From: Rubrivivax sp.
Lineage (GTDB): Bacteria; Pseudomonadota; Gammaproteobacteria; Burkholderiales; Burkholderiaceae_C
Direction: 5' to 3'
DNA length: 64,000 nt
NCBI GenBank assembly: GCA_024641945.1
Contig: JAHECD010000005.1
Span: 1,537 to 65,536 of the forward strand
Shown: positions 3,365 through 6,073 of the stretch, piece after piece
How positions within the stretch are numbered: the stretch's first letter is position 1
How the letters are laid out: each line of letters starts with the position of its first letter
Made by a program: the position numbers and the translations under genes
Notes under the pieces: model-generated
Seen by the model: only the letters and a program-made list of their open reading frames with translations
What the model was told of the DNA's origin: nothing
The model's database searches: none

Positions 3365-3790
3365 TCAGCGGCCGCTGGCCGAGGTCTGCGCCGCGAAAGT
3401 CAGCCTGGCGAGGCCGGCCCTTCGTGCAGCGTCGAGCACGTTGATGACCGACTGGTGTGCCGCCATCGCGTCGGCCGAGACGATGACGATGGCGTCGGCG
3501 TGTCCATCGGCGGCCGCCACCAGCGCGGCGGTGAGCGCCTCGACGTCGCGACTGTCGATCGGTTTGCGGTCGATCATGTAACGGCCTTCACTGGATACCG
3601 AGACGATGACCTCGCGCGGCCGTTCCTGCAGCTTTTCCGCGTTGGCCGTCGGCAGAGTCACCTGCAACTCGGTAAAGCGCGAGTACGTGGTCGACAACAT
3701 GAGGAAGATGAGGATCACCAACAGCACGTCGATGAACGGGATCAGGTTGATCTCCGGTTCCTCGTCGCGTTGGCTGCTTCGAAACTTCAT
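3365..3790 (-). CDS. exbD: ExbD/TolR biopolymer transport protein
   Basis: EINLIPFIDVLLVILIFLML transmembrane motif with the conserved Asp. Confidence 0.92.
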   Translation of the reverse strand: MKFRSSQRDEEPEINLIPFIDVLLVILIFLMLSTTYSRFTELQVTLPTANAEKLQERPREVIVSVSSEGRYMIDRKPIDSRDVEALTAALVAAADGHADAIVIVSADAMAAHQSVINVLDAARRAGLARLTFAAQTSASGR

Positions 3791-4434
3791 GTTGCGGCCG
3801 CGGCGCGCTGCACGGTGAAGCGGAGCAGCTGCGGCACCATGCGCTCGGCCGCCAGTTCCATCGTCAGCCGATAGTTGTTCACCACGCTGCGAAAGTAGCG
3901 GTTGAACATCAGGGCCGGGATCGCCACGATGAGGCCGAAGGCCGTGTTGTAGAGCGCCACCGAGATGCCGTGGGCCAACTGCGCCGGGTTGGCCACCCCC
4001 GACGCGCCGGGTGCTTGCGCCCCAAAGATCTCGATCATGCCGACCACCGTACCGAGCAACCCCAGAAGGGGCGCCGCGGTGGCGATGGTGCCGAGGGCAT
4101 TGAGATAGCGTTCCAGCCGATGGATCGCCTCGCGACCGGCGATCTCGAACGCCTGGCGCAGCGCACCCTCGGTCATGCGCGGATCGGCCACGACGGCGCG
4201 CAGACCTGCTGCGAGGACCCGACCCAGCACCGAGTTCTCCGACAGCTTGTTGACGACATCAGCCGGTGGCAGATTGGAGCGGGTGACCGACATCACCTCG
4301 TCCAGCAACGTACTTGGGGCGACTCTCGGGCGCCGCAGGCTCATGAATTTCTCCATCACCAAGGCCAGTGCCACGACGGAGCAGATGATGAGGGGCCAGA
4401 TCGGCCAGCCGGCGGCTTGTATGATCGAAAACAC
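3787..4434 (-). CDS. exbB: MotA/TolQ/ExbB proton channel protein
   Basis: IATAAPLLGLLGTVVGMI, GISVALYNTAFGLIVAIPA; GTG start; overlaps exbD by 4 nt. Confidence 0.92.
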   Translation of the reverse strand: MFSIIQAAGWPIWPLIICSVVALALVMEKFMSLRRPRVAPSTLLDEVMSVTRSNLPPADVVNKLSENSVLGRVLAAGLRAVVADPRMTEGALRQAFEIAGREAIHRLERYLNALGTIATAAPLLGLLGTVVGMIEIFGAQAPGASGVANPAQLAHGISVALYNTAFGLIVAIPALMFNRYFRSVVNNYRLTMELAAERMVPQLLRFTVQRAAAAT

Positions 4435-4525
4435 AGGGGATCCCGGGCGAACTCAGCAGCGGTGGATTATGTCCGATGGCGTCGCGTGGCCTGTACCAGG
4501 CCGGCAGATGTTGCCAAGGTCAGCG

Positions 4526-4560
4526 TCATCCACCGTTTCTGTGGATAACTTTGTGCATAA
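4526..4560. promoter_or_regulatory. Cluster of three DnaA boxes (DARS-core-like geometry)
   Basis: TCATCCACC (4526-4534, 2 mismatches), 5-bp spacer, TGTGGATAA (4540-4548, perfect reverse complement of TTATCCACA), 3-bp spacer, TGTGCATAA (4552-4560, 1 mismatch). Confidence 0.7.
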
Positions 4561-4643
4561 GCCGACCACGATGTGCGGAAGTCCGCATGGTTGTTCGCCG
4601 TCGCTTTGTTTGCTTGTTGTTTGATCAGCAAAAAATCAATATG

Positions 4644-4656
4644 AATCAATCACTTA
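4644..4656 (+). promoter_or_regulatory. IHF binding site consensus
   Basis: AATCAATCACTTA matches WATCAANNNNTTR exactly, with an A-tract (4630-4635) on its 5' side, in an AT-rich patch. Confidence 0.65.
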
Positions 4657-4753
4657 AGTCGATGTGACTGAACGATGACCATGATTGGCTCGATTGAGGC
4701 GCGCAAATGCACGCTTGTGGAGTTCTCACCCCGCATCGGTGGGGGTCTGCGAC

Positions 4754-6073
4754 GTGTCTGCGTCTGAATCCGGCGGCGCATCGGCCGTGTCCTGGACGGT
4801 TGCCGGGCTTCTGGGGGCTGTAGCCGATACCCTGGCGGTCCGATTCGGTGCGCTCTCGGTGAATGGTGAGTTGAGCGGCTTTGTGCGGGCGTCAAGCGGG
4901 CACTGCTATTTTTCGCTGAAGGATGCCGACGGACAGCCCGGCCTGATCCGCTGCGCCATGTTCAGGCGATCCGCATCTTTGCTCGACTTTCAGCCTGCCG
5001 ATGGTCAGCGCGTGGAGCTTCGCGGTCGAATATCCGTCTACGAGGCGCGTGGCGAACTTCAGGTCGTCGTCGAAACATTGCGCCGCCAGGGGGCAGGTAC
5101 CTTGTACGAGGAATTCCTGCGCTTGCGGGCCAAGCTGGCGACGCAGGGCCTTTTCGATGAATCGCGCCGCAGGCCGATCGAGGCCAATCCGTCGGCCATC
5201 GGCATCATCACCTCCCTGGGTGCGGCCGCGCTGCACGACGTCGTGACGGCACTGCAACGCCGCGCGCCGCATGTGCGCATCGTCATCTACCCGAGCCCGG
5301 TGCAGGGCGCCGAGGCACCGGCGGCGCTGGCGGCAGCACTGGCCATGGCGGGCTCGCGCAACGAGGTCGATACGCTGTTGCTGGTACGGGGCGGAGGCTC
5401 GCTGGAGGATCTCTGGTCGTTCAACGACGAGCGCGTCGTGCGTGCGGTGTCGGCGTCTGCCATACCGGTGATCTGTGGGGTCGGACACGAGACGGACGTG
5501 ACGCTCAGCGACTTGGCCGCCGACCTGCGCGCAGCCACGCCAACGGCCGCGGCCGAATTGGCGGCCCCTGCGGTGCGCGACCTGATGGCCGCGCTGGATC
5601 GGCGCGGCGCCGGGCTCGTTGCTGCCGTTCGGCGCGCGCTCGACCGCCAGGCGCAACGCGTCGACATGCTGGCCCAACGCACGGGGCGGCCGGCCGCCGC
5701 CATGGCCCAACAGCGGCAACGGGTGCATGGCCTGGGGCTGCGGCTCAGCGGTGCCGCGTCCCGCAGTGCGCAGAGGGCAGGGCAGCTGCCTCCGGCACTC
5801 GCGCACAGGTTGCTTCATGCGGGCAGGCAGACGCTGGCACGGGGCGCCGACAGACTTCAGGTCTTGTCAGCGCGCCTTGTCGCGGCGCACCCACAGCAGG
5901 TGTTGAACCGCGGATATGCATGGGTCGTCGATTCCCGTGGGGTTCCTGTCATGCGCGTGGCGGGCTTGACCATCGGCGATGAATTGAGTGCCGTGTTTGC
6001 GGACGGACGTGCACGCGCCACCGTGGAAGAAGTCGACGTCGTATCGTCCACGGGACCGCTTTTGCCGCCATGA
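4754..6073 (+). CDS. xseA: Exodeoxyribonuclease VII large subunit
   Basis: SGHCYFSLKD OB-fold, IGIITS...AALHDV, LLVRGGGSLEDLWSFNDE, GVGHETD, ATPTAAAE; start uncertain (GTG 4754 chosen within ORF 4685..6073). Confidence 0.94.
   Translation: MSASESGGASAVSWTVAGLLGAVADTLAVRFGALSVNGELSGFVRASSGHCYFSLKDADGQPGLIRCAMFRRSASLLDFQPADGQRVELRGRISVYEARGELQVVVETLRRQGAGTLYEEFLRLRAKLATQGLFDESRRRPIEANPSAIGIITSLGAAALHDVVTALQRRAPHVRIVIYPSPVQGAEAPAALAAALAMAGSRNEVDTLLLVRGGGSLEDLWSFNDERVVRAVSASAIPVICGVGHETDVTLSDLAADLRAATPTAAAELAAPAVRDLMAALDRRGAGLVAAVRRALDRQAQRVDMLAQRTGRPAAAMAQQRQRVHGLGLRLSGAASRSAQRAGQLPPALAHRLLHAGRQTLARGADRLQVLSARLVAAHPQQVLNRGYAWVVDSRGVPVMRVAGLTIGDELSAVFADGRARATVEEVDVVSSTGPLLPP

What the first reader, a model, noticed from the sequence alone, without database searches (positions are those of the whole stretch)
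4526..4656. DARS-like element (three DnaA boxes plus an IHF site) between exbB and xseA
Seen: TCATCCACC, 5 bp, TGTGGATAA, 3 bp, TGTGCATAA, followed about 84 bp later by an exact IHF consensus (AATCAATCACTTA) with an upstream A-tract, all in an AT-rich patch of a GC-rich genome. Weaker boxes lie at 4461 (GGTGGATTA) and 4572 (TGTGCGGAA). Established: E. coli DARS1/DARS2 regenerate DnaA-ATP through a three-box core with box I opposed to boxes II/III, and DARS2 also needs IHF and Fis; datA likewise combines DnaA boxes with IHF. As I recall it, the DARS1 core in the uvrB promoter has these same 5-bp and 3-bp spacers; this needs confirming by alignment. Inference: a non-origin chromosomal DnaA control locus in a betaproteobacterium, where I know of no characterised example.
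Basis: partly seen in the sequence, partly recalled or inferred. Interest (0 to 1): 0.72.

Follow-up and report, generated by a model that had tools for sequence, protein, structure and literature searches.

The report
DARS-type DnaA/IHF control module

Summary
Window 4526-4560 reads TCATCCACC-5-TGTGGATAA-3-TGTGCATAA. This is the same 9-5-9-3-9 layout, with box I opposed, as the E. coli DARS1 and DARS2 cores fetched here. An exact IHF consensus (4644-4656) lies 83 bp past box III.

It is not oriC. dnaA and two perfect boxes lie on another contig, GC skew does not switch in the window, and in complete relatives the module lies 0.09-2.2 Mb from dnaA.

The 5-Mb genome has only two such cores. The second lies between hemE and priA and has the same IHF site (85 bp) and distal box.

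The core pattern occurs in 267 of 401 genomes of the order, against 0 for a reversed control, mostly at these two syntenic sites. The composite also occurs in many Gammaproteobacteria, including upstream of uvrB, the DARS1 position.

Best reading: a DARS-family DnaA-reactivating element whose activity is untested. Main rival: a datA-like element, because the IHF-centred distances (83/59 bp) match E. coli datA (84/56 bp). One point counts against an identical mechanism: DnaA Gln208, needed for DARS action in E. coli, is Ser here.

The parts
4526..4534 (+). DnaA box I (TCATCCACC), opposed to boxes II and III. It has 2 mismatches to TTATCCACA. C at position 2 also occurs in the datA box read here as box 4, and a final C occurs in E. 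coli DARS2 box I.
   Evidence: The family consensus at this position is tTaTCCACA. Box I has 3 or fewer mismatches in 14 of 23 related exbB-xseA loci.
4540..4548 (-). DnaA box II (TGTGGATAA on the + strand, a perfect TTATCCACA on the - strand), 5 bp from box I.
   Evidence: It is one of only 5 perfect boxes in the genome and is nearly invariant in relatives.
4552..4560 (-). DnaA box III (TGTGCATAA), same direction as box II, 3 bp from it.
4610..4630 (.). Conserved spacer motif TTGC...GCA with a T-rich centre, followed by an A6 tract (4630-4635). It may be a Fis-type site or the 5' half of the IHF footprint. Function unassigned.
   Evidence: Information peaks in the family alignment. The genus alignment shows TGCC-N9-GGCA-like sequences.
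4644..4656 (+). IHF-binding consensus AATCAATCACTTA (WATCAANNNNTTR), 83 bp past box III.
   Evidence: Same strand and an 82-88 bp gap in all 145 modules collected. It is kept with 2 or fewer mismatches in all genus relatives.
4716..4724 (-). Distal DnaA box IV (TGTGGAGTT; degenerate, same direction as II and III), 59 bp past the IHF site and about 30 bp upstream of the likely xseA start.
   Evidence: CTGTGGAGTTC is conserved across the genus. A box with 2 or fewer mismatches lies 50-79 bp past the IHF site in 120 of 145 modules, against 7 of 145 at control offsets. The family consensus is TGTGgAtaA.
4526..4724 (+). The whole four-part module: core boxes I-III, spacer, IHF site, box IV.
3787..4434 (-). 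exbB/tolQ-family gene, first of the exbB-exbD-lpxK cluster, transcribed away from the module.
4754..6073 (+). xseA (exonuclease VII large subunit). The likely start is GTG 4754, not the first possible TTG at 4685.
   Evidence: TIGR00237 match with E 9e-122. In-frame GTG at 4754; this codon lines up with the GTG/ATG column in the genus alignment.
4464..4477 (-). Motif GATTATGTCCGATG, conserved across the genus. It is probably the exbB promoter -10 region (CATAAT on the minus strand) and is not part of the DnaA module.

Best explanation
Window 4526-4724 is a non-origin, cis-acting DnaA/IHF platform of the DARS family.

Shown:
- It has three DnaA boxes in the exact DARS-core layout: box I opposed, then 5 bp, box II, 3 bp, box III.
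- It has an exact IHF site 83 bp past box III.
- It has a fourth DnaA box 59 bp past the IHF site, in the same direction as II and III.
- The module is under selection as a unit. It recurs with the same distances at two syntenic sites (exbB-xseA and hemE-priA) across the order and at other sites in Gammaproteobacteria, including upstream of uvrB, where E. coli DARS1 lies.
- The genome encodes DnaA, a near-threshold Hda homologue, IHF alpha and beta, and a Fis homologue.

Inferred mechanism:
- After Hda-dependent hydrolysis, ADP-DnaA binds the perfect box II and recruits protomers to box I (head-to-head) and box III (head-to-tail), as proposed for E. coli DARS1.
- IHF bends the DNA sharply at 4644-4656. 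This folds box IV back onto the core, because the two arms are of similar length, and stabilises or regulates the oligomer.
- The strained head-to-head pair releases ADP, and apo-DnaA rebinds ATP. This raises ATP-DnaA for the next initiation at oriC, which probably lies next to dnaA on another contig.
- The second copy at hemE-priA would act as a DARS1/DARS2-like partner.

The direction of the effect (reactivation rather than inactivation or titration) is inferred from the core layout only.
For: - Layout identical to E. coli DARS1 and DARS2 (PMC6868365).
- Only two such cores in the genome, and their box II sites are 2 of only 5 perfect DnaA boxes.
- Both cores carry AATCAAnnnnTTA, 83 and 85 bp past box III on the same strand, and a distal box at +59 and +70.
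- Conservation at the same locus in 23 of 26 related loci.
- The core pattern occurs in 267 of 401 genomes of the order, against 0 for the reversed control.
- Boxes II-III plus an exact IHF site occur in 114 of 401 genomes, against 0 for the control.
- The IHF gap is confined to 82-88 bp in 145 modules. It was 82-87 bp in all but one of the 80 listed hits of a public-genome scan that allowed 73-93 bp.
- The same composite lies in the Kosakonia orthologue of the E. coli DARS1 region (71% identity over 540 bp) and directly upstream of uvrB in Tolumonas and Aeromonas.
- The E. coli DARS2 IHF sites lie on the same side at a similar distance (about +75 to +103).
- It is not the origin.
- An Hda homologue is present at 193 bits, just under the 194.8-bit cut-off. 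IHF alpha and beta and a 78-aa Fis are present.
- DnaA Leu290, Phe239, Lys243, Arg285 and Arg334 are conserved.
Against: - There is no functional data of any kind.
- DnaA Gln208, which E. coli needs specifically for DARS-dependent ADP release (PMC6868365), is Ser here and Ser, Ala or Arg in six other genomes of the order.
- Box I is unrecognisable (6-9 mismatches) in 8 of 23 related exbB-xseA loci, all in the same genus, although boxes II-III, the IHF site and box IV persist there. The most strongly conserved part is therefore not the DARS-specific head-to-head pair.
- The IHF-centred distances match datA (84/56 bp), an element with the opposite effect.
- Box IV sits about 30 bp before xseA and could simply be an operator.
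- Distance from dnaA is not conserved among complete relatives (4-98% of the half-genome).
Confidence: 0.55

Rival explanations
1. datA-like element. The module assembles ATP-DnaA head-to-tail on boxes II-III and on box IV, brought together by the IHF bend. It promotes hydrolysis of DnaA-bound ATP, or simply titrates DnaA, and so restrains initiation rather than promoting it.
For: Read on its reverse strand, E. coli datA is TCATCCACA-3-TGTGAATAA-84-TATCAATAGGTTA-56-TGTGGATAA. This has the same IHF orientation and almost the same arm lengths as here (83 and 59 bp), with the IHF site between DnaA boxes of one direction, as the datA review describes (PMC5742627). Lineages that lost box I keep boxes II-III, the IHF site and box IV.
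Against: The opposed box I with a 5-bp spacer followed by two tandem boxes is the DARS hallmark, and it is the majority state across the order. The pair read here as datA boxes 3 and 4 has a 3-bp spacer and no third box. Established DARS1-position loci (upstream of uvrB) carry the same whole module.
Confidence: 0.2
2. The sites are mainly a transcriptional operator. DnaA, helped by IHF, regulates xseA and/or the exbB-exbD-lpxK cluster, and priA at the second copy. This would couple DNA-repair and restart genes to the replication cycle, with no catalytic effect on DnaA's nucleotide state.
For: Box IV lies about 30 bp upstream of the likely xseA start. Modules sit next to DNA-metabolism genes: xseA and priA here, uvrB in Aeromonas and Tolumonas. 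From general knowledge, DnaA is a known transcription factor and the DARS1 region overlaps the uvrB regulatory region.
Against: The module keeps its internal distances whatever its neighbours are. It faces the repair gene with opposite ends: box IV faces xseA, while box I faces priA. Among 120 named loci, 57 lie next to neither gene pair. No sigma-70-like promoter was detected in 4380-4820. A simple operator does not need a 200-bp, four-part layout with helical-scale spacing.
Confidence: 0.12
3. It is the replication origin, or a second origin.
For: It has DnaA boxes, an IHF site and an AT-rich patch.
Against: dnaA is on another contig with two perfect boxes upstream of it. GC skew stays positive across the window with no switch at 4.5 kb. 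There are two modules per genome. In seven complete relatives the modules lie 0.09-2.2 Mb from dnaA. The module has only four boxes and no 13-mer repeat array.
Confidence: 0.02

Closest known systems
E. coli DARS1 (bioD-uvrB intergenic region)
   Same: Three-box core with box I opposed, 5-bp and 3-bp spacers and a perfect box II. DARS1-position loci in Kosakonia, Tolumonas and Aeromonas carry the whole composite found here: core, 84-86 bp, exact IHF site, then a distal box in the same direction. In E. coli itself the site 86 bp from the core is degenerate (TTTTAACTGGTTA, 2 mismatches), and TGGGGATAA follows further on.
   Different: The flanking genes differ (exbB/xseA here, not uvrB). E. coli DARS1 is reported to need no protein activator (PMC11724364), whereas here the IHF site is exact and conserved. 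The organism's DnaA has Ser where E. coli has Gln208. The activity is untested.
E. coli DARS2 (ygdT/rppH-mutH region)
   Same: Same core layout. The IHF sites IBS1-2 lie on the box III side at about +75 to +103, and the best 13-mer there is on the same strand. There is a second copy per genome. A Fis homologue is present in this genome.
   Different: In DARS2 the Fis sites and low-affinity boxes lie beyond the IHF site, and the next strong box (TTATCCACA at +176) has the opposite direction. Here a box in the same direction lies 59 bp past the IHF site, and no Fis site is established.
E. coli datA (glyVXY-queG region)
   Same: The IHF site lies between DnaA boxes of one direction, with arms of 84 and 56 bp against 83 and 59 bp here, and the same IHF orientation. 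An opposed box abuts the proximal box (PMC5742627).
   Different: datA has a two-box head-to-head pair with a 3-bp spacer, not the I-5-II-3-III triad. datA inactivates DnaA, the opposite of DARS. My box numbering in datA is inferred from the review's description.

Membership tests
DARS (DnaA-reactivating sequence) | Three 9-bp DnaA boxes, with box I oriented opposite to boxes II and III | tested here: met
   PMC6868365.
DARS (DnaA-reactivating sequence) | A 5-bp spacer between boxes I and II and a 3-bp spacer between boxes II and III | tested here: met
   Window: gtttc and ctt. DARS1: attcc and cca. DARS2: ttttc and agt.
DARS (DnaA-reactivating sequence) | Intergenic, outside oriC | tested here: met
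DARS (DnaA-reactivating sequence) | Core conserved in relatives at a syntenic position | tested here: met
   23 of 26 related exbB-xseA loci keep boxes II-III. 14 keep box I with 3 or fewer mismatches, and 8 have lost it. The core pattern occurs in 267 of 401 genomes of the order.
DARS (DnaA-reactivating sequence) | Same sequence module as loci at the established DARS1 position (upstream of uvrB) | tested here: met
   Kosakonia, Tolumonas and Aeromonas.
DARS (DnaA-reactivating sequence) | DARS2 type: an IHF site beyond box III at a fixed distance, required for activity | tested here: met
   The presence and the fixed distance of 82-88 bp are shown. Whether it is required for activity is not testable here.
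DARS (DnaA-reactivating sequence) | DARS2 type: a Fis-binding site beyond the IHF site | tested here: inconclusive
   A 78-aa Fis homologue is present. The only candidate is a conserved G/C-flanked, T-rich motif between the core and the IHF site. Nothing recognisable lies beyond the IHF site.
DARS (DnaA-reactivating sequence) | DnaA residues needed for DARS action in E. coli (Gln208 at the head-to-head interface; Leu290) | tested here: not met
   Gln208 is Ser here and Ser, Ala or Arg in six other genomes of the order. Leu290, Phe239 and Lys243 are conserved.
DARS (DnaA-reactivating sequence) | Promotes ADP release from ADP-DnaA and raises ATP-DnaA and initiation in vivo | not testable with these tools
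   Needs biochemistry and genetics.
datA (DnaA-ATP hydrolysis locus) | An IHF site between DnaA boxes of the same direction, at optimised distances | tested here: met
   Box III, 83 bp, IHF site, 59 bp, box IV here. datA reads 84 and 56 bp.
datA (DnaA-ATP hydrolysis locus) | All essential boxes share one direction (head-to-tail assembly only) | tested here: inconclusive
   The module has in addition a widely conserved opposed box I, but 8 related loci have lost it.
datA (DnaA-ATP hydrolysis locus) | Stimulates hydrolysis of ATP bound to DnaA; represses untimely initiation | not testable with these tools
   Needs biochemistry and genetics.
oriC | Origin context: next to dnaA in this group, a GC-skew switch, an array of many boxes plus an unwinding element | tested here: not met

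The most novel reading that the evidence does not exclude
The four-part module (opposed box I, 5 bp, box II, 3 bp, box III, about 84 bp, IHF site, about 60-70 bp, box IV) may be the ancestral non-origin DnaA control element of Beta- and Gammaproteobacteria. E. coli DARS1, DARS2 and datA would then all be derived versions of it. For example, datA's TCATCCACA-3-TGTGAATAA-84-IHF-56-TGTGGATAA equals the module minus one core box and its spacer. In Betaproteobacteria the unreduced module could switch between recharging and discharging DnaA, depending on IHF occupancy and on whether ADP- or ATP-DnaA fills it.
Probability: 0.2. Interest if true: 0.85.

Novelty: new member of a known kind. Interest (0 to 1): 0.7.

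Why it matters
According to the papers I could search, control of the ATP/ADP state of DnaA by non-coding chromosomal sites (DARS1, DARS2, datA) is known experimentally only in E. coli. Sequence conservation has been reported for eight close gammaproteobacterial relatives (Kasho 2014, Fig. S10) and Vibrio cholerae.

A DARS-type module conserved at two syntenic sites across the Betaproteobacteria, and present in Pseudomonas, Acinetobacter, Haemophilus and Xanthomonadales-type genomes, would make this an old and general layer of replication control. It also gives precise test objects: a 200-bp fragment with four defined sites.

The fixed IHF distance and the distal box link the DARS and datA layouts. 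The non-conserved Gln208 predicts either a co-evolved head-to-head interface or a different mechanism.

Tried and rejected
- **oriC:** rejected. dnaA is on another contig with its own perfect boxes, there is no GC-skew switch, there are two modules per genome, and complete relatives place the modules 0.09-2.2 Mb from dnaA. No cluster of 3 or more near-consensus boxes within 400 bp exists anywhere in the genome.
- **Fur box, because exbB genes are often iron-regulated:** the best match in 4430-4760 has 8 of 19 mismatches. Rejected.
- **Sigma-70 promoter or terminator scan of 4380-4820:** nothing found. Uninformative in a 65% GC organism.
not conserved as DnaA boxes.
- **Distance from dnaA as a way to tell DARS-like from datA-like:** not conserved. 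The exbB-xseA site lies at 33-98% and the hemE-priA site at 4-88% of the half-genome.
- **Orientation relative to the expected fork direction:** differs between complete genomes. Not pursued.
- **Literature searches for DARS in Betaproteobacteria, Burkholderia or Pseudomonas, and for 'DARS-like':** no description outside E. coli-proximal Gammaproteobacteria. Fujimitsu 2009 itself is not held.
- **A paper on a UV-induced DnaA-dependent origin (PMC12000880):** irrelevant.
- **Naming the organism:** the one named-genome scan went on the pattern search. The closest named loci are MAGs labelled Burkholderiaceae.
- **First flank-gene pass on GC-rich gammaproteobacterial loci:** it picked spurious ORFs. 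Only the uvrB, ttcA and lytic transglycosylase neighbours were confirmed later.
- **Correction:** my notebook entry miscounted the related loci as 26/29 and 17. The correct counts are 23 of 26 loci with boxes II-III and 14 with box I at 3 or fewer mismatches.

Full report
**1. What is in the sequence**

One search shows the spacer between an exbB/tolQ-family gene (3787-4434, minus strand; followed by exbD and lpxK) and xseA. One search identifies these genes: xseA matches TIGR00237 with E 9e-122, and sodB follows xseA.

The spacer reads TCATCCACC (4526-4534), gtttc, TGTGGATAA (4540-4548), ctt, TGTGCATAA (4552-4560). An exact IHF consensus, AATCAATCACTTA, lies at 4644-4656, which is 83 bp past the third box. 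An A6 tract precedes it. The region 4550-4700 is 39-44% GC in a window that averages about 65%.

The xseA reading frame can be opened at TTG 4685. However, an in-frame GTG at 4754 appears to line up with the start-codon column in relatives. The non-coding spacer therefore probably runs from 4435 to about 4753.

**2. Comparison with E. coli**

I fetched the MG1655 regions.
- DARS1 reads TTATCCACT-attcc-TGTGGATAA-cca-TGTGTATTA.
- DARS2 reads TTATTCACC-ttttc-TGTGGATAG-agt-TGTGAAGAA.

The window element has the same order, the same orientations (box I opposed to II and III) and the same 5-bp and 3-bp spacers.

**3. More than chance**

- In the 64-kb window, single boxes are not enriched: 4 with 1 or fewer mismatches against 3.2 expected. 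Two of the four are adjacent here.
- The whole 5.02-Mb assembly has only 5 perfect boxes. Two lie upstream of dnaA on contig C134, one is isolated on C117, and two are box II of two three-box cores.
- Only two places in the genome fit the 9-5-9-3-9 layout with 5 or fewer mismatches in total. One is this locus. The other is C153:13261 on the minus strand.
- The pattern CCAC-N6-TGTGGAYAA-N3-TGTG matches 267 of 401 genomes sampled across the order (118 of 168 genera), usually 1-3 times per genome. The same pattern read backwards matches none.

**4. Not the origin**

- dnaA is on another contig, with two perfect boxes and one near-perfect box upstream of it.
- GC skew is weakly positive all along the window and does not switch at 4.5 kb.
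- In seven complete or near-complete genomes of the order, the cores lie 0.09-2.2 Mb from dnaA.

**5. A four-part module, present twice**

The second core, CTGTCCACT-gcttt-TGTGGATAA-cat-TGTGGGCAA, lies between hemE and priA. One search confirms both genes. It carries AATCAACAACTTA 85 bp past box III on the same strand.

Across loci from many families, an exact WATCAANNNNTTR lies 83-86 bp past box III on the same strand in 25 of 57 cores. In 145 modules collected later the gap is 82-88 bp, although 80-90 bp was allowed.

A fourth DnaA box, in the same direction as II and III, follows the IHF site. Counting boxes with 1 or fewer mismatches, its start clusters at two offsets, 58-60 and 67-71 bp past the IHF site. 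Taking the best box found 50-79 bp past the IHF site in each module, 73 of 145 have 1 or fewer mismatches and 120 of 145 have 2 or fewer. At control offsets the figure is 7 of 145.

In the window this box is TGTGGAGTT (4716-4724, offset 59). It is degenerate, but CTGTGGAGTTC is conserved across the genus. In the hemE-priA copy it is TGGGGATAA at offset 70.

A family alignment projected onto window coordinates shows information peaks at exactly these places:
- box I, consensus tTaTCCACA;
- boxes II and III;
- a TTGC...GCA motif at about 4610-4630;
- the IHF site;
- box IV.

**6. Conservation at this locus**

The divergent exbB-xseA arrangement is conserved across the order. Of 26 exbB loci, 23 hold TGTGGAYAN-3-TGTGnnnAA in the spacer. 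The three exceptions are a truncated contig, a rearranged locus without xseA, and one locus that has lost the element.

Box I has 3 or fewer mismatches in 14 loci, including all five from other families, where it has 0-1 mismatch. It has 4 mismatches in one locus. It is unrecognisable in 8 loci, all in the window's own genus. At a fixed position, 3 or fewer mismatches of 9 has a chance of about 1% by my binomial calculation.

The genus alignment shows that even the loci without box I keep boxes II-III, an IHF site with 2 or fewer mismatches, and box IV. The window's copy has all four parts.

**7. Wider distribution and the link to established DARS loci**

I scanned one genome per prokaryotic species for core plus IHF site, with 73-93 bp allowed between them. 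In all but one of the 80 listed loci the gap is 82-87 bp.

Named carriers include many Burkholderiales: Acidovorax, Comamonas, Rhodoferax, Hydrogenophaga, Rubrivivax, Massilia, Herbaspirillum, Thauera, Methylotenera and Thiobacillus. They also include Gammaproteobacteria: Pseudomonas, Acinetobacter, Haemophilus, Aeromonas, Tolumonas, Kosakonia, Stenotrophomonas, Methylobacter and Woeseiaceae.

Of the 120 loci, 33 are at exbB-xseA and 30 are next to priA.

The Kosakonia hit is the orthologue of the E. coli DARS1 region, with 71% identity over 540 bp. The Tolumonas and Aeromonas hits lie directly upstream of uvrB. All three show core, 84-86 bp, exact IHF site, then a box in the same direction further on.

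E. coli DARS1 itself has a degenerate 13-mer (2 mismatches) at exactly +86, with TGGGGATAA beyond it. In E. coli DARS2, the footprinted IBS1-2 (Kasho 2014) lies by the PciI site. That places it about 75-103 bp past box III on the same side. By sequence layout, the window element therefore belongs to the same family as the DARS loci.

**8. The datA complication**

Read on its reverse strand, E. coli datA is TCATCCACA-3-TGTGAATAA-84-TATCAATAGGTTA-56-TGTGGATAA. I assign boxes 4, 3, IBS and 2 from the review's description. The IHF orientation and both arm lengths nearly equal those of the module (83-86 bp and 58-61 bp).

The module thus combines the DARS-specific triad with the datA-type arrangement of an IHF site between boxes of one direction. 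With a sharp IHF bend, box IV would fold back onto the core. This follows from arm lengths of roughly 75-85 bp on either side and is an inference.

This makes a datA-like role (inactivation or titration) a serious rival. It also suggests a common origin for the three E. coli elements, which is speculative.

**9. Trans-acting factors**

The genome encodes:
- DnaA, 51% identical to E. coli DnaA;
- an Hda homologue at 193 bits, just under the 194.8-bit cut-off;
- IHF alpha and beta, and a 78-aa Fis next to purH.

DnaA Leu290, Phe239, Lys243, Asp269, Arg285 and Arg334 are conserved. [quoted passage not shown] Either the head-to-head interface has co-evolved or the mechanism differs.

**10. Literature**

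Kasho 2014 states that the DARS2 core is conserved among Gammaproteobacteria related to E. coli. Its Fig. S10 covers Shigella, Erwinia, Salmonella, Yersinia, Vibrio, Photorhabdus, Shewanella and Aeromonas. [quoted passage not shown] One review notes DARS-like sequences in V. cholerae.

Searches for DARS together with Burkholderia, betaproteobacteria or Pseudomonas, and for 'DARS-like', found no description of such an element outside that group.

Earlier notes of this scan report the same kind of module in other genomes, at xseA/exbB and upstream of priA. They are AI notes and I did not count them as evidence. My own results agree with them.

**11. Verdict**

This is a conserved, non-origin DnaA/IHF platform with the DARS core layout, one of two in the genome. 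I am about 90% sure that it is a selected DnaA- and IHF-binding control element. I put about 55% on its net effect being DnaA reactivation, about 20% on a datA-like role and about 12% on a mainly transcriptional role. These roles are not mutually exclusive.

It is a new member of a known kind in a lineage where none has been described. The fixed IHF distance, the distal box and the link to datA are the added points.

Noticed in passing
own genome contig C153:13163-13295 (locus L068 3587-3797, minus strand): A second complete module lies between hemE and priA: CTGTCCACT-5-TGTGGATAA-3-TGTGGGCAA, 85 bp, AATCAACAACTTA, 70 bp, TGGGGATAA. Box I faces priA. This site is syntenic across the order and also occurs in Xanthomonadales-type genomes.
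   Followed up: yes
E. coli MG1655 datA, locus L191 1745-1927: On the reverse strand datA reads opposed box, 3 bp, box, 84 bp, IHF site, 56 bp, box. This is nearly the same IHF-centred geometry as the module. datA equals the module minus one core box and its spacer, which may point to a common ancestry of datA and DARS.
   Followed up: partly
window 4464-4477: GATTATGTCCGATG is conserved in nearly all genus relatives, about 30-45 bp upstream of exbB. It is probably the exbB -10 region (CATAAT on the minus strand).
   Followed up: partly
window 4610-4630: A TTGC...GCA motif with a T-rich centre (TGCC-N9-GGCA in most genus relatives) is conserved family-wide between the core and the IHF site. 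It could be a Fis-type site or part of the extended IHF footprint. Unexplained.
   Followed up: partly
window 4705-4745 and the same place in L009, L016, L021, L022: In relatives, box IV is flanked by a GC-rich inverted repeat (GGCGCGG ... CCGCGCC). In the window it is imperfect (ATGCACG ... CCCGCAT). It could be a stem-loop in the xseA leader or chance in GC-rich DNA.
   Followed up: no
own genome contig C134:5673-6311 (upstream of dnaA): Two perfect DnaA boxes (5734, 6268) and two one-mismatch boxes (5673, 6303) lie upstream of dnaA. This is the likely dnaA promoter and oriC region.
   Followed up: partly
G093:C1:5094453 and 5094918; G269 contigs C5 and C14; G248:C1:79740-79776; G328:C1:229670-229706: Some genomes of the order carry tandem modules 290-465 bp apart (two at hemE-priA in G093). 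Others carry palindromic double cores in which boxes I and II are both perfect and a box III follows on each side.
   Followed up: partly
own genome C134 (DnaA); loci L208-L212 and L214: The DnaA residue equivalent to E. coli Gln208 is Ser, Ala or Arg in the seven Betaproteobacteria examined, although their genomes carry DARS-type cores.
   Followed up: yes
own genome contig C117:48187: A lone perfect DnaA box (TGTGGATAA), the only one of the five in the genome that lies outside dnaA-upstream and the two modules.
   Followed up: no
loci L011, L014, L015, L020, L023, L024, L027, L030: Eight species of the window's genus have lost box I at the exbB-xseA site while keeping boxes II-III, a near-consensus IHF site and box IV. 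I did not check whether they keep an intact triad at hemE-priA.
   Followed up: no
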